Source: Octopus vulgaris
Lineage: Eukaryota
Reading direction: 5' to 3'
NCBI GenBank assembly: GCA_951406725.2
Contig: OX597818.1
Coordinates: forward strand, 124,496,001-124,560,000
Length of the DNA: 64,000 bases
Part shown: in pieces, positions 4,240-38,360 of the stretch
Numbering within the stretch: position 1 is the first letter of the stretch
How the letters are laid out: each line of letters starts with the position of its first letter
The notes under the pieces: model-generated
Seen by the model: the letters and a program-made list of their open reading frames with translations, nothing else
The model's database searches: none
Told to the model about the DNA's origin: nothing
Translations under genes and position numbers: made by a program

Positions 4240-4790
4240 GGGGCTTAAACTGATGGACCAAGTTATGTAAGTAATAGACTTAACTATGGCAAAATTAGTT
4301 AGAGAGAAAATTAATTCAGATACGATGTAGTTTAAATTGGTGCCAAAACATGGTACTGCAGATGTTTTCTCCCTAGTGGGACAACTACAGGAGAAGTTCT
4401 TAGCAAAGACCCAGCCATTAGACCTAACATTTGTTGAGCTGGAGAAAGTCTTTAACAGGGAACCATATTCCATAGTCTGGTAGTCACTATGAAATGGTTT
4501 GAGAACCATGCAATCTATGTACAGAGATGTCAGTAGTTAGCAATGTGTTCAATGAAGAATTTAACAGAGGCAGATGTCCGTTAAATCTCTATTCTCAGGT
4601 CCATCCTGTTTATTACAGTTCTTCAGGCTATAGTAAATGGATACTAGCTCTCCGCTACAAATATGACTTAGTTCTCATGACTGCATCTGCTGCAGAATTA
4701 GAAGAGAAATTCCAAATATGAAAGCAAAATCTAGAATTGAGAAGAATAAAAGTTAACCAAGAAAAACAAATGGTTTGGTTAATAAGAAAG
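4240..4790 (+). mobile_element. Highly degenerate RTE-clade reverse transcriptase fragment
   Basis: Translatable patches such as GTADVFSLVGQLQEKFLAKTQPLDLTFVELEKVFNR resemble the RTE RT motif 'STxDxIFxxRQLQEK...FVDLEKAFDR'. Many stops and frameshifts. Confidence 0.55.
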
Positions 4791-4844
4791 ATATGACTCT
4801 ACAGCCATTTGAAAAGTAGCCAATATGCAGAAAATAAGTAGGAA

Positions 4845-6310
4845 TTCTAGTTTTGTACCTAATTCGTCTTTCATCTCTTTTATACTGCTCTTGCAAAATG
4901 GCCTGAAATTGTGCGACTCTAGGCTGGCTCTTGCTTCTTGCATCGCTCCGACTATATCTGCGTGCCTTAGTTTTCCAATCACTCTGTTTACTGCCTCTTC
5001 TGCCTTCCATTTCCTCCCTGTTCGTACCTTTGGGGGGTTTTCCCGGATGCTCTGATCTTTTGAATACCTTAGCATCATTACTGTCCTTGCCTTTCCTGCC
5101 TTATATTGTTCAGTGATTGATGTTATTGGTAGTTGCAGCACGGGTTTTCCATATAATGCAGTTGTAGTCAGTGGTTTCGGCAGACCAAGCCATTTTCTGA
5201 TAAACACACTGCATCTTTGTTCCATCATTTCTACTCTACTCAAAGCTATTTCGTACATTTGCAATGGCCACATTATCCTTGGGTACAGCCCAAATTGCAG
5301 TCTCCAACATTTGAATTTTCCCGGCAGCGTTGTTCCGTCAATTGCCTTTAATCCTTGTTCTACTAACTCGTGTGTTTCTTTCCCTTGTTTCTTATCATTT
5401 AATAAACCTCTATACCATCTGCCAAGACTCTTTACTAGTTGTTCTTTCACCGTTGGTATGTCTTCACCTCCTATCCTGAATTTCACTTCTTCTTGCACTC
5501 CTTTCATGAAAGCCATGCTTCGAGATTTTTTGGCTTTGAATTTCATCCTTGCCCATCCTATCAGTTCATCCAACCGCTCAAACATTTCCTCTGCTGCTTC
5601 TCTACTTTCTGATAATACAGTAACGTCATCCATAAAAGCCCTTAATGGTGTCTTTGTAACAGCTTTCTCACAGTTTGTAGATCTAAGTAACATTTCCATG
5701 ACTAGCACAAATAAGATTACTGATATCGTGCATCCGGCTGCAATACCTATTTCAAGCCATTGTCACTCCATTGTGAACTTACCTGCTGCAAATCTCATCC
5801 TCAGGTTGTCGTAGTAGAACATGAACATTCGTTGAACATCTTTTGGAATCCAAAAGAAGTCCATTGCTGTTTTTATTAGTGCGTGCAGAACAGATCCATA
5901 AGCATTGGCAAGATCTAACCAAACAATATACAGGTTTTTCTTCAGTTGTTTTGCACAGGTGATGGCTTCCCAAATGGCAAATGCATGTTCTATGCACCCA
6001 GGGATTCTGGGGATTCCTGCTTTTTGAATCGCTTCATTAACGTACCCGTTATGCTGTGCGAATCTTATGATTCGTCTAGCAATAATTCCAAACATGATTT
6101 TTCCATCAATATTTAATAATGAAATTGGTCTAAATTGTCCTAGTGTTTTTTATCTTTCTCTTTAGGTAGATAGATACCTTCAGTTATACACCATCGCTCC
6201 GCTACATCTTTCTTCTTCCACATTTCTCTTATCAGTGCAAACAGCTGCAAACGTAATTTCAGGCAATATTTAAACACCTTGTAGCTCACTCCATCGTTCC
6301 CTGGTGAATC
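4845..6310 (-). mobile_element. Hero-clade (R2 group) non-LTR retrotransposon, RT/thumb fragment, disrupted
   Basis: ORFs 5763-6095 and 4779-5708 give QKAGIPRIPGCIEH, WLDLANAYGSV, FMDD, WARMKFKAKKSRS, LPGKFKCW, RKWLGLP and VRTGRKWKAEEAV, motifs I recognise from Hero elements. An in-frame TGA at ~5763 separates the two ORFs; both ends are truncated. Confidence 0.8.
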
Positions 6311-27280: not shown

Positions 27281-27340
27281 TGAAATTATGAATAATACTC
27301 AAGCATTAGCATGGATTTTCTTAAACTCTAAATTATAATT

Positions 27341-27753
27341 TAAAGTATAATAGCCATCTCAATATGGCTAACCACAAAGGGTGGATTTTTTATTGCTTGC
27401 AGACAGTTTTTCGAAATCAGTGACGGAAGTTACTAGAAAAACACTAAAGTATTTGCATACAAGGTCTTCCTTTTCATCGAAAACCGGTGATTACCGCCCG
27501 TTGACAAGAGGCAACTACCTCGAAACTGTGGTCCGTGCGTATCACTTAGGCTTACGAGAGAGGGATGACCTCCCTTTGCAAATACCATAAGGGCACAGAT
27601 AGTGTGCTTAAAGCCAGCTGGAGACGATGATCTCCTGGGGCTAAAAGCTACAGTAACACCCACCCTTAGTGGTTAGCCATATTGAGATGGCTAGTATACT
27701 TTACGTTGTCGAGCGGTTACTGTTTACATCTCGTTCAGAGATTTATTATTGCT
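27341..27753 (+). mobile_element. Short Penelope-like fold-back insertion with 12-bp TSD and hammerhead ribozyme motif
   Basis: TSD TAAATTATAATT at 27329-27340 and 27754-27765. Inverted arms 27341-27384 / 27660-27703 (42 of 44 matching), then a 50-nt unpaired tail. Hammerhead at 27487-27545. Confidence 0.75.
27487..27545 (+). ncRNA. Type I hammerhead ribozyme motif with U3-A8 core variant
   Basis: Stem I GTGAT..CGC.CG / CG.GCG.ATCAC; core TTGACAA (27501-27507); stem II GAGG-CAACTA-CCTC; GAAA; short stem III C-TGTG-G; GUC cleavage triplet ending 27533. Confidence 0.7.
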
Positions 27754-27784
27754 TAAATTATAATTGTTTTTTAAAACTCAACAG

Positions 27785-29706
27785 TGCATATAGATGCCCC
27801 TTGCAGTGCTCCAGTTGTGAATGAAAACAGGAAAGGCAGCTGGTCCAGCAGAAGTAAGTGTGGAAATGATAACTGCAAGTGGAGAGAGAGGGATTGTTGT
27901 GATGTTGGAGTTCTGCCAGGGTGTGCTGGATGGAAGAGGAATGCCAGACGATTGGGCACTAAGTGTGGTGGTACCGATCTTCAAGGGGAAGGGGGATGCG
28001 ATGAGTTGTGGGGTGTATAGGGGAGTGCAGTTATTTGAGCATACAATGAAGATAGTGGAAAGGGTATTGGAGAGGTGAATTCAGAAGAGGGTGGATGTGG
28101 ACGAGATGCAGTTTGGTTTTATGCCAGGAAGTGGAACAATAGATGAAGTGTTCATTGTAAAGAGATTGCAAGAGGAATCTGAAGTTGTGCATGTGCTTCA
28201 TTGATCTGTAGAAGGCATTTTATAGGGTCCCAAGGATGGTGATTGAAAGGGCATTGAAAAAGAGGGGTATACTGGAGGTAATAGTGAGGGCAGTGGTGAG
28301 TTTGTATGAGGGGGTAAAGACAAGAGTTAGAATTGGATCAGAGCTGTCAGAGGAGCTTGCCGTGAAAGTTGGTGTGCATCAGGGATCTGTGTTGTCACCA
28401 TTATTGTTTGCAATAGTGGTTGATGTGGTGATGGAGAGTGCAAGAGAGGAATTGATAATGGAGATATTGTATGCAGATGACCTTGTTCTGATGAGTAAGA
28501 CGATGGAGGGATTGAGGGAGAAGTTTTAGAAATGGAAGGAGGTGTTTGAAAGCAAAAGTTTGAAGGTAAATCTCAGGAAGACAAAGGTGATGGTGAGTGG
28601 AGTGGAAGGAGAAATGAGTAAAGGAAATCCATAGTATATGTGGAAGGATGGTAATGACAAATGCTGAAGGCAGCGAGCTGGCAGAAACGTTAGCACGCCG
28701 GGCAAAATGCTTAGTGGTATTTATTCTGCCGTTACGTTCTGAGTTCAAATTCTGCCGAGGTCGACTTTGCCTTTCATCCTTTCAGGGTTGATAAATTAAG
28801 TACCAGTTACGCACTGGGGTTGGTGTAATCGACTTAATCCATTTGTCATTCCTTGTTTGTCCCCTCTGTGTTTATCCCCTTGTGGGTAGTAAAGAAATAG
28901 GTAATGACAAATGCAGTGATGGGTACGAGATGTGAGAAATGGATTTGTGGTAGATGTATGAAAATGAAGAAGGTGACCCCAAGACTGGCGAGAGAGTTTG
29001 TTTGTGGAAGATGTGAGAAAGGAGCTGGAAGCCTGGCAGAACCAGTGGAAATGCTATGTGATGAGAGGGAAACGGTAAGAAGGTTTTGTTATTTGGGAGA
29101 TAAAGTGGATGTAAGTGGTGGATGTGAAGCAGTTGTGACAGCAAGAGCAAGACATGGCTGGATGAAGTTCAGGGGATGTGGAGTGTTGTTACATGGGAAA
29201 AGGTTCTCAATAAAGATGAAAGGAAGGGTCTATAGGAGTTGTATGAGAGCTGCAATACTGTATGGGAGTGAGACATGTTGTCTGAGGAAGAGAGAGATGG
29301 TAATTTTGAGAAGGACTGAGAGAGTGACGGTGAGAGGAATGTGTGGGGTGAAGCTGTTTGGTAAGAGGAGGACTGAGGAATTGATGGGAATGCTGGGGCT
29401 GGAGAAATCAGTGGAATGGTTGGCAAGGGTGAATGGAGTGAGGTGGTATGGGTATGTGTTGAGGAGGGATGAAGAGCATGGTCAGAGGATGGTGATTGCA
29501 TTTGAGGTAAATGGAGCACAAAAGGGAGGAAGACTGAGGAAAAGGAGGAGGAGACAAGTGGAGGAGGAGATTGGGAGGGTTGGTTTGAAAAGGGAGGACA
29601 CCCAGGCGAGATGGTGTGAGGGCAGTTGCTATGGCGTTGAGGTAGATCCAACCACCCCCATTAACAGGGACAAAATCCGGATTTAAAACACTGGATGATG
29701 ATGATG
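27785..29706 (+). mobile_element. RTE-clade LINE, 5'-truncated, RT domain to (GAT)n tail, multiply disrupted
   Basis: MKTGKAAGP..., VVPIFKGKGD, QFGFMPG, VGVHQGSVLSPLLF, ILYADDLVL, FCYLGD, AILYGSET and RWYG.VLRR in successive ORF pieces; ends GATGATGATGATGA. Confidence 0.9.
28665..28899 (+). mobile_element. SINE family B inserted into the RTE LINE with a 15-bp TSD
   Basis: GGTAATGACAAATGC at 28650-28664 and 28900-28914. Confidence 0.92.
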
Positions 29707-29926
29707 AGGTTTATGGATTTAATTCATGTAATATTCTTCAATATGTATCCTTTTGTCAAAATTTTCAAACTAAATCTACTTGATTTGGTGGTTAATAGTG
29801 ATTGACTTGATTTAACAATACAGGTTTATTTCCATTGTGGTGATCCTCCTAGATCAGAGGTACTTGCCATTGACATTAAATCAATGTTGTCATATTGCTT
29901 ATCTCTCCTCATCTTTGTTTTCCATG

Positions 29927-31165
29927 TCAAAGATAATCTAAACAATTCCAAGATTATGGTCAAAGATAATAAGTACAATTCAAGGATTATAGTCAAAGAT
30001 AATTGCTAGAATTCAAAGATTACAGTCAAAATCAATCACTAAAATTTAAAGATTACTTCAAAGATAATCGAATTAAAAAATTGTTGTCAAAGATAATCAC
30101 TAGAATTAAGAGTAAAGTCAAAAATAATCCCTAGAATTAAAAGATTATAGTCAAAATAATCACAAGAATTTAAAGATGATGATAAAAGATTATCACTAAT
30201 TTAAAGATATTGGTAAAAGATAATTATTAGAATTCCTTGATTATAGTCAAATACCATTACAAGAATTCAAAGATTATGTCATCGATAACCACTAGAATTA
30301 AAAGAATGTAGTCAATGACTATCACAAGAATTGAAAGATAATAGTAAAAGATAATTATTGGAATTTCTGGATTATAAGTCAAAGATTACTATTAGAACTC
30401 ATTGATTATGGTCACAGATAATCACTAGAATTTAAAAAATCCTAGATAAAGAAAATCATTAGAATTTTAAAATAATGGAAAAAGATAATTATTATAAATC
30501 CTAGATTATAGTCATAGATCATTATGAGAATTCAAAGATAATGGTCAAAAATAATTATTAGAATTCCTTGATTATAGTCAAATACCATTACAAGAATTCA
30601 AAGATTATGTCATCGATAATTACTAGAATTAAAAGAGTGTAGTCAATGACAATCACAAGAATTCAAAGATAATAGTAACAGATAATTATTGGAATTTCTG
30701 GATTATAAGTCAAAGATTACTATTAGAATTCGTTGATTATGGTCACAGATAATCACTAGAATTAAAAAATCCTAGTTAAAGAAAATCATTAGAATTTTAA
30801 AATAATGGAAAAAGATAATTATTATAGAGTGGTTGTATACTGTCAACTTAACGTGACAGTAAGGGAATTACAACACCGTTGTTTAGCCCTAGGAAGCATC
30901 GACGCTTCCTGTCGGCCTCACAGGAAATATGTCAAGGCCGACAGGAAGCGTCGATGCTTCCTAGGGCTAAACAACAGTGGTGTAATTCCCTTACTGTCAC
31001 GTTAAGTTGACAGTATACAACCACTCTATCGCCCCACCACCGTACATATCTCTATGAGATATTTAGAAATTTAATATTTCTGATAATTATTATAAATCCT
31101 AGATTATAGTCCTAGATCATTATGAGAATTCAAAGATAATGGTCAAAGATAATTATTAGAAATCA
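29927..31165. repeat. 33-bp minisatellite (consensus ~TCAAAGATAATCACTAGAATTCAAAGATTATAG) with ~331-bp higher-order repeat
   Basis: Units visible from 29927. Variant ATACCATTAC recurs at 30251 and 30582, and AGAATTTTAAAATAATGGAA at 30461 and 30791. Confidence 0.9.
30827..31081 (+). mobile_element. Short fold-back insertion (Penelope-like architecture) with 13-bp TSD inside the minisatellite
   Basis: TSD GATAATTATTATA at 30814-30826 and 31082-31094. Arms 30824-30918 / 30935-31029 (93 of 95 matching, 16-nt loop), then a 52-nt tail. The earlier higher-order unit (~30484-30510) shows the empty site. Confidence 0.85.
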
Positions 31166-31711
31166 TAAGTTACCTGGTTGCTCTACCGTTTGTGAATAAC
31201 TCACAAATATATGCATTTTTAGTTTGCCCCTACCACCACCATCAGATGCTCTATAAACAAAGTATGCTCTCTTATCTCCATGAAGAAATATTTCTTGGGT
31301 AGTTAGCTGAGTGAAAGCTAAGATAAGCCGCATAACATCATGTCTACATTACATCATAGTAATTCGCCATGACAGACAATATGCACAGGTTTGAAAGATC
31401 TTGCTTAAAGTGGCTCTTGAATCACCCCCTACCATCACCATCACGACCACATACCTTATGCTGCAACCCTAAATATTGGAGTAATTTGCAGCTTGTGAAT
31501 ACACACACACACACACACACACACAGAGTGTAAAGTGCTTGACATACTAAGTAAAAGTCCTAGCTGGCAACTGGAGGGGGAGGCTGTCCTTTCAACCAAT
31601 ATGCTACTGTGGACGCCACTGGATGACGGACTCTGGTGATGGATGATGTTATTCTACACTTCCCGATCCATGGTGCTGGCTTTAGCATGCTTCAGGTCTT
31701 CAATTTCTTTC

Positions 31712-32124
31712 TTATTTCTTTATTGTCCACAAGGGGCTAAACACAGAGGGGACAAACAAGGACAGACAAAGGGATTAAGTCGATTACATCGACCCCAGTG
31801 TGTAACTGGTACTTAATTTATCGACCCCGAAAAGATGAAAGGTAAAGTCGACCTCGGCGGAATTTGAACTCAGAACGTAACAGCAGACGAAATACCTATT
31901 TTTTTACTACCCACAAGGGGCTAAACATAGAGAGGACAAACAAGGACAGACAAACGGATTAAGTCGATTACATCGACCCCAGTGCGTAACTGGTACTTAA
32001 TTTATCGACCCCGAAAGGATGAAAGGCAAAGTCGACCTCGACAGAATTTGAACTCAGTACGTAACAGCAGATGAAATACCACTAAGTATTTCGTCCAGCA
32101 CGCTAACATTTCTGCCAGCTCGTC
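31712..32124 (-). mobile_element. Head-to-tail tandem of two SINE family B copies
   Basis: CCACAAGGGGCTAAACA...GAACTCAG repeats at ~31727 and ~31911; the first copy is 5'-truncated. Confidence 0.85.
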
Positions 32125-34215: not shown

Positions 34216-35390
34216 CTGATGATGTTTTTGTTGTTGTTTAGCTAGGTCCATGTCAACCCAGGTTAAAATTCAGGATTAAAAGCATTCAGGCTGGGACTGA
34301 TGAAGTTCTGTTGAACCAGGGTCAATAAAATAAGTACCAATTGAGTGCTGGGGGTCGATGTAATCAACTTATCTCCTACTCCGAAATTGGTGGCCTTGTA
34401 CCAAAATTTGAAATCATTATTAGGGCAGCAAGCTGATAGAATCATTAGAGTGTCAGAAAAAAGGCATTGCAGTATTCGGGTGCTTTACATTCTAAGTTCA
34501 AATCACACCAAGGTCAACTTTGCCTTTCATTCCTCTCAGGTTGATAAAATAAAGTGCCAGGGAAGAGCTGGATCAACAGAGTTGACAAACACCCTAAACC
34601 CACTCAAAATTGCTGGACCTGTGCCTAAATCATCATCATCATCATCATCATATGTTTGTATCTCTCTTTCTCTCTGTGTGTAAGAAATCGGTATAGTCAA
34701 TACCTAAAACAAGTCAATATGTCATGATAGTGCTTCTATGATTTCTTTAGAAGTTGAGGTACAAGACAAGATAAGCAAAGCAATACTTGTAACTTCAGAT
34801 AGGCAGTACTCCAGTGTTCTCTGGACTCATACTTCAAAGCAGTCAAGATAGACTGCATTCACTTTGCTGCTTTGTCTATAGAATATATTTGTAAATTCTG
34901 GTGGCAGATAGTAGACAGTACATACAGTTGAGTAGCCTGTTAACAATTCAACTCAGTAGTAAACCATTGTGAATGCAAGCCAACAAAGAGTCTCATATGT
35001 GATCATTAAACCAGCTAAATGTAGCAGCTAAGTCTCTCTTATAGTATACCATCTCTCATGAATAATGTGGTTCTAGATGCCTGATGTATGGGGAAAATAT
35101 TGGATGGGCATTGTTGGAATGCTTTTGATCATAGATATACTTAATCAGGTTTATCTGAGGCTAAACAACAACAGCAACGTTGTGATATTGAGTTTACCAT
35201 TTTGATATATTTTTCCTTGATGGATTCTTCGTCAAATAACTGCAACCTGCACATAGGTGTCCTCTCTTTGTTGACAGTATTCTGTGTATTCTTTGACTGT
35301 CTTCAATCCTCAAGAATGGTAATATACCCAGTTCACTGTAAGCAGGTTTTAATCAAAGAAAATATCACCTTTTAGTGTAAAACTTTACAT

Positions 35391-38240: not shown

Positions 38241-38360
38241 ATTTACGGCCATATCACGCTGAAAGCACCGGTTCTCATCCGATCACCGAAGTTAAGCAAC
38301 ATTGAGACTAGTGAGTACTTAGATGGGTGACCGCTTGGGAAACTTAGGTGCTGTAAGCAT
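38241..38360 (+). pseudogene. 5S rRNA: Dispersed full-length 5S rRNA copy (pseudogene or SINE3 head)
   Basis: 120 nt: TTACGGCCATATCACGCTGAAAGCACCGGTTCTCATCCGATCACCGAAGTTAAGCAAC...AGTACTTAGATGGGTGACCGCTTGGGAA...GGTGCTGTAAGCAT. The two ends pair as helix I. A-box and C-box regions are present; a few CpG-decay-type changes relative to the metazoan consensus I recall. Confidence 0.93.

What the first reader, a model, noticed from the sequence alone, without database searches (positions are those of the whole stretch)
27329..31094. Two fold-back mini-elements share architecture and three hairpins but little sequence: a candidate non-autonomous Penelope/retrozyme system
Seen: inserts 27341-27753 and 30827-31081 both have an AT-rich TSD of 12 or 13 bp containing AATTAT. 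In both, an inverted copy of the subterminal sequence sits at the left junction, and an unpaired tail of 50 or 52 nt follows the right arm. Their 3' regions keep the same order of structures with different bases. Hairpin A is GGAGA-CGATGA-TCTCC vs AGGAAGC-GTCGAT-GCTTCCT, each followed by GGGCTAAA...ACAGT. Hairpin B is TAGCCAT-6nt-ATGGCTA vs TACTGTCA-8nt-TGACAGTA, each running into GTATAC. Tail hairpin C is TAC-ATCTC-5nt-GAGAT-TTA vs TAC-ATATCTC-3nt-GAGATAT-TTA. Known: Penelope-like elements (PLEs) often insert with an inverted 5'-truncated terminal repeat plus a short unpaired tail, and carry hammerheads. Inference: these are two diverged families mobilised by related PLE RT/GIY-YIG machinery that recognises a conserved structured 3' RNA signal. 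I do not know this three-hairpin signal to have been described.
Basis: partly seen in the sequence, partly recalled or inferred. Interest (0 to 1): 0.8.

Follow-up and report, generated by a model that had tools for sequence, protein, structure and literature searches.

The report
Retrozyme inserts with Penelope-type signature
Two short, highly repeated non-coding inserts from diverged families show the insertion scars typical of Penelope-like jumping genes and share a predicted folded RNA tail, and one carries an intact-looking hammerhead ribozyme, so they are likely 'retrozyme' passengers copied by a Penelope-type reverse transcriptase that was not found here.

Summary
Both inserts have exact AT-rich duplications (12 and 13 bp; for insert 2 an empty paralogous site lies 331 bp upstream), a 5' inverted arm (44 and 92-95 nt) and an unpaired 3' tail (50 and 52-55 nt). 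Their last 135 nt are homologous (0 of 2000 shuffles score as well). Insert 1 holds a type I hammerhead (27495-27539) with the U3-A8 core variant described from Penelope-like elements (PLEs). Its body is a 356-nt non-coding unit preceded by 14 nt of its own 3' end. The shared 3' module also has a fourth hairpin, a basal stem and a long-range helix: 29 of 31 matched pairs are kept, 6 by double changes. Public runs show both families are highly repeated, with coverage piling up at the 3' end. This fits published PLE insertion anatomy and non-LTR retrozymes, so the kind is known. No PLE protein partner was found and no outside relative was found, so cutting, circularisation and recognition of the module are inferred. 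I did not find the conserved 3' module in print; it is a testable candidate for the PLE recognition signal.

The parts
27329..27340 (.). Insert 1 left TSD (12 bp)
   Evidence: exact copy at 27754-27765
27341..27384 (-). Insert 1 inverted arm, copy of 27660-27703 (hairpin B region, lacks the 50-nt tail)
   Evidence: 42 of 44 identical
27384..27397 (+). Repeat of the element's own 3' end (partial second unit)
   Evidence: 27384-27398 matches 27740-27754 at 14 of 15; next best 9 of 15; 0 of 3001 shuffles
27398..27753 (+). 356-nt non-coding unit (retrozyme-sized monomer), GC 0.44
   Evidence: folding z -5.05, 0 of 100 shuffles; GC; longest frame has no credible protein relative
27449..27590 (+). 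Long irregular rod extending hammerhead helix I
   Evidence: predicted in MFE and centroid
27495..27539 (+). Type I hammerhead: helix I 6 bp (one mismatch), core UUGACAA (U3-A8 variant), helix II 4 bp with 6-nt loop, helix III 2 bp with self-complementary loop; predicted cut after 27533
   Evidence: only hit of my descriptor in 64 kb on both strands, 0 of 3000 insert shuffles; parts; self-pairing; variant described in PMC4209133; not found by Rfam
27591..27609 (+). Hairpin 0 (insert 1)
   Evidence: fold; majority letter C at 27608 in four runs adds a G-C pair
27612..27646 (+). Basal stem plus hairpin A plus conserved GGGCTAAA (insert 1)
27650..27723 (+). Long-range helix D (27650-57 with 27716-23) enclosing hairpin B (27674-93) and GTATAC (27694-99); inversion breakpoint 27703 lies inside
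   Evidence: pair probabilities 0.83-0.99
27728..27753 (+). Hairpin C and T-rich 3' end (insert 1)
27754..27765 (.). Insert 1 right TSD
30484..30496 (.). Empty paralogous target site in the preceding 331-bp repeat unit
30814..30826 (.). Insert 2 left TSD (13 bp)
   Evidence: exact copy at 31082-31094
30827..30918 (-). Insert 2 inverted arm, copy of 30935-31026
   Evidence: 98% over 95 nt; two differences at 30873 and 30877
30919..31081 (+). Insert 2 body: 163-nt 5'-truncated 3' module (half of hairpin 0, basal stem, A 30943-62, D strand 30974-82, B 30992-31015, GTATAC 31013-18, A/C-rich linker, D partner 31035-43, C 31046-62); no hammerhead
   Evidence: folding z -4.61, 0 of 200 shuffles
31082..31094 (.). 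Insert 2 right TSD

Best explanation
The two inserts are copies of two diverged, highly repeated non-coding families, likely pasted in by a Penelope-type reverse transcriptase/GIY-YIG endonuclease; insert 1 is a hammerhead-bearing 356-nt unit that is likely a non-LTR retrozyme, and insert 2 is a 5'-truncated end of a sister family. Inferred mechanism: the endonuclease makes staggered nicks 12-13 bp apart in AT-rich DNA. The protein binds the conserved 3' module (hairpin 0, basal stem/A, helix D with B, hairpin C) on the + strand RNA. It starts one cDNA at the fixed T-rich end just past hairpin C, 220 nt downstream of the hammerhead cut site, so inside the RNA rather than at a ribozyme-made end. 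It starts a second cDNA on the other target strand about 50 nt further in, 4-8 nt past GTATAC. The second copy becomes the inverted arm without the tail, and the two are joined head to head. In insert 1 the main cDNA ran through the uncut or religated hammerhead site and 14 nt into the next unit, which would need a multimeric or circular template or a jump back to the start. Shown: TSDs, arms, tails, hammerhead motif, 14-nt repeat, homology and pairing of the 3' modules, high abundance. Inferred: the enzyme, the two start sites, the role of the module, cutting and circularisation.
For: TSD lengths differ (12, 13) and are exact, with an empty site for insert 2. Both 3' ends fall at the same place in the module, and both arms begin 4 and 8 nt after GTATAC, while arm lengths differ, 44 vs 92-95. 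Same anatomy is published for PLEs: direct plus adjacent inverted pLTR, 31-bp tail, 8-10-bp TSD (PMC3846280 passages); inverted 5'-truncated copy and 30-40-bp tail (PMC8557442); two internal RT start sites that delimit the tail, cuts at ATT in AT-rich DNA (PMC11167929). Hammerhead: single descriptor hit in 64 kb, inside insert 1, same strand as the tail, 0 of 3000 shuffles; its UUGACAA core is the U3-A8 covariant reported in PLE hammerheads, and its helix sizes match the canonical metazoan type (PMC4209133). Unit 356 nt, GC 0.44, fits retrozyme monomers of 150-450 bp, under 50% GC, mussel 350-390 bp (PMC7229834). Summed contig depth in four runs is 1e4-1e6 over the inserts against 11-88 over a unique flank, and rises along insert 1 (X1: 6.6k at 27461, 41k at 27529, 918k at 27608, 1.9M at 27662; same trend in X3, X5, X6). 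29 of 31 position-matched pairs kept, 6 by double change; random placement of the 15 changes gives 6 or more in 36 of 200,000. Majority letters in the runs (27608, 30929) repair or add pairs in hairpin 0.
Against: No RT/GIY-YIG gene linked: no genome held; only 3 of 150 frames scanned hit Pfam, all RVT_1 fragments away from the inserts, none GIY-YIG (165 shorter frames not scanned). Rfam finds no ribozyme here even at E 10. Only one hammerhead at the locus, and insert 2 has none. Covariation comes from two sequences with pairs chosen by eye; retention alone is weak (8287 of 200,000 reach 29 pairs). Helix D has probability about 0 in insert 2, where an alternative helix (30976-81 with 31020-25) wins at up to 0.99, and D is broken once in each arm. 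For the insert 2 module the minus strand folds better (-54.7 vs -46.5). Tails of 50-55 nt are longer than the 30-40 nt in the papers read. The A/C-rich linker is seen in insert 2 (0.75) but not insert 1 (0.33). Summed depth is not copy number and the 5' fall could partly reflect divergence. The joint tables were swamped by a SINE (15 of 1979 joints shown), so fixed ends and variable breakpoints across copies were not seen.
Confidence: 0.72

Rival explanations
1. Both are plain 5'-truncated terminal-repeat stubs of two autonomous PLE families; the 14-nt repeat in insert 1 comes from the RT jumping back to its start site (partial tandem), and there is no separate 356-nt retrozyme unit or circle. 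Same enzyme and mechanism, no non-autonomous family.
For: Partial tandems and heavy 5' truncation are standard for PLEs. The U3-A8 core was described in autonomous PLE hammerheads. Depth upstream of the hammerhead is only about 0.1-1% of that at the 3' module. Earlier scan notes describe many such stubs (unchecked).
Against: The 97 nt upstream of the hammerhead fold into a hairpin and a long rod with the downstream side and the only long frame (63 codons) has no Pfam hit and one chance hit among 1.84 billion proteins, so no ORF end is visible. Helix sizes are of the canonical retrozyme type rather than the long-helix-II minimal PLE type.
Confidence: 0.18
2. Non-autonomous Helentron (HINE/DINE-1-like) DNA elements moved by a rolling-circle transposase recognising ssDNA hairpins.
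For: HINEs have a 5' subterminal repeat 2-4 nt from the end, its partner 38-60 bp from the 3' end, a palindrome 8-35 bp from the 3' end and T-rich targets (PMC4067079 passages), close to the layout here.
Against: HINEs show no target site modification and 12-15-bp subTIRs; here a 13-bp duplication is proven by an empty site, arms are 44 and 92-95 nt, and insert 1 has a hammerhead and a 3'-biased depth profile.
Confidence: 0.04
3. Mutator/foldback-type MITEs with asymmetric inverted repeats, or LINE-mobilised SINE-like elements with twin-priming inversions.
For: Long inverted arms and TSDs near 10 bp occur in Mutator/foldback elements, and LINE fragments are abundant in the window (recalled). 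A 12-nt piece of the module recurs at the end of an unrelated repeat at 35159.
Against: The inverted part duplicates sequence that is also present in direct orientation and stops 50 nt short of the end, which twin priming and terminal repeats do not give (established knowledge); no poly-A or microsatellite tail; hammerhead present; the 35159 match is chance-level (E 1.9).
Confidence: 0.06

Closest known systems
Non-LTR (metazoan) retrozymes (Cervera and de la Pena 2020, PMC7229834: passages, sections 14 and 17; supplement not readable. Li, Clavereau, Pollet 2026, bioRxiv 10.64898/2026.07.22.740005: parts 1-3 of 5, all main text; supplements closed)
   Same: Non-coding unit of 356 nt, GC under 50%, canonical-size type I hammerhead, TSD longer than 4 bp, solo monomers; proposed to derive from PLE terminal repeats and to use PLE machinery.
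   Different: Here a solo monomer with an inverted tail-less 5' arm and an exact 12-bp TSD; the parts I read describe neither that anatomy nor a 3' structure conserved between families (the preprint has 0 uses of 'tail' or 'secondary structure', and sampled no mollusc by word count). U3-A8 core. Tandem arrays, cutting and circles not shown.
Insertions of endonuclease-bearing Penelope-like elements (Arkhipova et al. 2013, PMC3846280, passages; Craig et al. 2021, PMC8557442, passages, results part 1, supplement searches)
   Same: 5'-truncated direct copy, adjacent inverted copy without the tail, AT-rich TSD, partial tandem.
   Different: No ORF in either copy; tail 50-55 nt rather than 30-40; TSD 12-13 rather than 8-10; clade of the partner unknown. 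Naiads are an unlikely partner (no canonical hammerhead; cephalopod Naiads long inactive).
Poseidon PAc internal initiation (Frangieh et al. 2024, PMC11167929, parts 1-2 of 4)
   Same: Insert end lies downstream of the hammerhead cut site; two boundaries delimit a tail; ATT-rich target.
   Different: PAc starts inside the first 120 nt of its ORF in an A/C-rich stem-loop; here the module is non-coding, and only family 2 has an A/C-rich linker.
PLE hammerheads with U3-A8 core (Cervera and de la Pena 2014, PMC4209133, parts 1-2 of 4)
   Same: U3-A8 in place of C3-G8; short self-complementary helix III implying a dimer.
   Different: Helix I 6 bp and helix II 4 bp with no extra base, i.e. canonical rather than minimal geometry.

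Membership tests
non-LTR retrozyme | Type I hammerhead in the unit | tested here: met
   insert 1, 27495-27539; U3-A8 variant; insert 2 is truncated before this position
non-LTR retrozyme | Unit of 150-450 bp, GC under 50% | tested here: met
   356 nt, GC 0.444; the unit length rests on one 14-of-15 repeat
non-LTR retrozyme | No protein coding | tested here: met
   stops in all three + frames; no Pfam hit; 63-codon frame has only a chance hit
non-LTR retrozyme | Tandem arrays with two or more hammerheads somewhere in the genome | tested here: inconclusive
   this locus is a monomer plus 14 nt; no genome held; joints not visible
non-LTR retrozyme | TSD longer than 4 bp, multi-copy | tested here: met
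   12 and 13 bp; high summed depth in 4 of 4 runs
non-LTR retrozyme | Self-cleavage and circular RNA | not testable with these tools
   needs in vitro cleavage and RNA data
autonomous EN+ Penelope-like element | ORF with telomerase-like RT and GIY-YIG endonuclease | tested here: not met
   absent from both copies; copies are therefore not filed as autonomous PLEs
PLE-type insertion product | Inverted 5' copy lacking a one-sided tail, 5' truncation, variable AT-rich TSD | tested here: met
   2 of 2 inserts
PLE-type insertion product | Shared terminal sequence with an autonomous PLE of the same genome | not testable with these tools
   no genome; no outside relative among 13 pattern hits
Helentron/HINE | No target site modification; 12-15-bp subTIRs | tested here: not met
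   13-bp TSD with empty site; arms 44 and 92-95 nt; features
MITE | Terminal inverted repeats at both ends and one fixed TSD length | tested here: not met
   right arm ends 50-55 nt inside; TSD 12 vs 13

The most novel reading that the evidence does not exclude
Insert 1 is the genomic print of a retrozyme circular RNA copied 1.04 times round by a Penelope-type RT, and the roughly 165-nt non-coding module shared by the two families (hairpin 0, basal stem/A, helix D switching with an alternative helix, B, C) is a conserved RT-binding and dual-start signal: the PLE counterpart of the LINE/SINE 3' stem-loop, enough to make any RNA a PLE passenger.
Probability: 0.3. Interest if true: 0.68.

Novelty: new member of a known kind. 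Interest (0 to 1): 0.42.

Why it matters
How animal retrozymes get back into the genome is open: the 2020 paper names PLEs as a 'strong candidate' and the 2026 preprint gives tree evidence but leaves the mechanism unresolved. A retrozyme-sized unit carrying the PLE-specific scars (inverted tail-less arm, 12-bp TSD, end far from the ribozyme cut) is direct footprint evidence, and a short non-coding module conserved between two families gives a concrete template for the existing in vitro PLE assay. Against this, fold-back PLE stubs with hammerheads are common debris, and no partner enzyme is in hand.

Tried and rejected
Whole genome: none held, so copy alignment and partner search were impossible. 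Other copies in the window: none by blastn, motif scan or the 25 longest of 681 inverted repeats. Rfam: only a 5S rRNA at gathering; at E 10 only generic miRNA hairpin hits on the insert 2 fold-back and two snoRNA chance hits. HDV, twister, twister-sister and pistol readings of the GGGCTAAA module were considered by eye from recalled consensus and dropped; Rfam gave no support. I first read the hammerhead core as decayed; one search showed it is a described covariant. Pattern scans: viral contigs 2 and 1 loci, metagenome strict 0, loose 10; all 13 score 32-70 against the inserts versus 100 between the inserts and lack the structure, so chance. Pfam on 150 of 315 frames: 3 RVT_1 fragments, no GIY-YIG. 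63-codon frame across the hammerhead: one hit, E 4.4e-5, to a repetitive bacterial-type surface protein, rejected as repeat-inflated. Craig et al. supplement: 8 occurrences of the 8-mer or its complement, 3 seen, all in unrelated context; Octopus Naiad 3' ends not read. O. vulgaris annotation supplement holds no sequences. Literature searches for a prior description of the module found none; subscription papers, Repbase/Dfam and the unread supplements of PMC7229834 and the preprint may hold it. Scan look-ups by sequence and place were empty.
Full report
Setting. The window is animal-type DNA, rich in microsatellites and LINE/SINE debris. By recall of its SINEs it is probably an octopus; no call tested this. 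No whole genome is held. If the guess is right, suitable machinery exists: a 2026 annotation of O. vulgaris lists Penelope-like elements at 6.83% of the genome, 190 families, 31 recently active (PMC13282606, passages and supplement).

Observation. Insert 1 (27341-27753, 413 bp) is flanked by an exact 12-bp duplication and insert 2 (30827-31081, 255 bp) by an exact 13-bp one. Insert 2 sits in the second unit of a 331-bp higher-order minisatellite; the first unit carries the 13-mer once, with 94 of 96 and 75 of 77 aligned bases identical on either side, so this TSD is real. Each insert begins with an inverted copy of a subterminal stretch (44 nt, 42 identical; 92-95 nt, 98%) that omits the last 50 and 52-55 nt. 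The arms start 4 and 8 nt after the shared GTATAC, and both elements end at the same T-rich position after hairpin C. The last 135 nt align far above chance (80 vs 31 +/- 8; 0 of 2000).

(1) A type I hammerhead at 27495-27539 on the + strand of insert 1, the only hit of my descriptor in 64 kb on both strands; 0 of 3000 insert shuffles, 1 hit in 5 window shuffles. Helix I has 6 bp with one mismatch, helix II 4 bp, helix III 2 bp with a loop that makes the 8-mer self-complementary counting G-U. The core reads UUGACAA, which is the U3-A8 covariant of C3-G8 reported in PLE hammerheads; the helix sizes are those the same paper calls canonical for metazoans and links to dimer activity. Rfam misses it. 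(2) The body of insert 1 opens with a copy of its own last 14 nt (14 of 15 with the next base; next best 9 of 15; 0 of 3001 shuffles), defining a 356-nt unit, GC 0.44, folding z -5.05, with a long rod extending helix I. It has no credible coding frame. (3) Further shared structure: hairpin 0, a basal stem under hairpin A, and helix D pairing the strand after GGGCTAAA with the tail.

Covariation. Over 31 position-matched pairs that I chose by eye, 22 are unchanged, 1 changes on one side, 6 on both sides (A 2, B 1, D 3) and 2 are broken in insert 2. One broken pair is repaired by the majority letter in four runs (30929), the other by the left-arm copy. Random placement of the 15 changes gives 6 or more double changes in 36 of 200,000 trials but 29 or more kept pairs in 8287, so retention alone is weak and the figure is optimistic. 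Each module folds better than shuffles (z -2.48, 4 of 200; z -4.61, 0 of 200). Against: helix D is predicted at 0.83-0.99 in insert 1 but near 0 in insert 2, where an alternative helix just 5' of the arm start wins; hairpin C does not covary; the minus strand of module 2 folds better.

Abundance. In 4 of 4 public runs laid, summed contig depth over the inserts is 1e4-1e6 against 11-88 over a unique flank, and along insert 1 it climbs towards the 3' end (X1 6.6k, 41k, 918k, 1.9M at 27461, 27529, 27608, 27662; X3 1.1k, 121k, 485k, 863k; X5 2.3k, 177k, 712k, 1.7M; X6 0.3k, 5.7k, 74k, 246k). The tool warns that this is no copy number, but the inserts are plainly not single-copy and the gradient fits 5' truncation. 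A SINE in the stretch crowded out the joint and loose-end tables, so ends and breakpoints across copies were not seen.

Mechanism. The anatomy matches PLE insertions: direct plus adjacent inverted repeat, one-sided tail, 8-10-bp TSD in Adineta; inverted 5'-truncated copy, partial tandems and 30-40-bp tail generally. In vitro, the anole Poseidon protein cuts both strands at ATT and starts cDNA at two internal sites that delimit the tail, and hammerhead cleavage is not needed. I infer the same here: the element end is 220 nt downstream of the predicted cut, the two boundaries are about 50 nt apart, and the conserved module spans them, so it is the likely binding and start signal. Insert 1 reads through the cut site and into a second unit, which needs an uncut multimer, a circle, or a jump back to the start. 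The enzyme was not found: no GIY-YIG among 150 of 315 frames scanned, and 13 pattern hits in viral and metagenome contigs are chance.

Comparison and novelty. Non-LTR retrozymes are 150-450-bp hammerhead repeats with larger TSDs, PLEs being the proposed mobiliser; a 2026 preprint derives them from PLE terminal repeats and leaves the mechanism open. The Helentron/HINE layout is similar but lacks TSDs and is rejected. What I did not find in print (supplements of the two retrozyme papers unseen; Repbase/Dfam not available) is a retrozyme-sized unit described with the inverted tail-less arm, or a 3' structure conserved between such families.

Verdict. Real; PLE-type insertion about 0.9 (retrozyme for insert 1 about 0.72, plain PLE stubs about 0.18); new member of a known kind; interest 0.42, rising to about 0.68 if the module proves to be the PLE recognition signal and the circle is shown.

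Noticed in passing
window 29919-31182: 33-bp AT-rich minisatellite with a 331-bp higher-order duplication hosting insert 2. Runs X3 and X5 have low depth over 30564-30724 (8 and 5 against 25-88 nearby), X5 has a contig 30220-30549, and X3, X5, X6 have a contig starting at 31118: a hint of an allele without the second unit and the insert.
   Followed up: partly
window 27384-27402 and 27694-27699, 31013-31018: Read through the tandem junction, the 3' end of insert 1 is followed by a T-rich tract ending in CAG 5 nt later, and both families keep GTATAC about 60 nt before the end: possibly a short intron spanning the RT start sites. Untested, low odds.
   Followed up: no
window 30976-30984 with 31016-31025: In insert 2 an alternative helix competes with helix D and tolerates the variants of both arms; it ends about where the inverted arm starts. 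Possible conformational switch.
   Followed up: partly
window 27800-29700: Decayed LINE (RVT_1 fragment 28212-28526; RTE-like by recall) interrupted at about 28660-28905 by a very high-copy SINE-like repeat; a second copy of that repeat lies at 31708-31896 inverted.
   Followed up: no
window 38241-38359: 5S rRNA-like sequence, 97 bits; gene, pseudogene or SINE head.
   Followed up: no
window 4782-6149 minus: Two adjacent reading frames with RVT_1 hits, a fairly intact non-LTR RT fragment.
   Followed up: no
window 35159-35170: An unrelated repeat ends in the same 12 nt as the GGCTAAA motif of insert 2 followed by a short (AAC)-like run; chance-level (E 1.9).
   Followed up: partly
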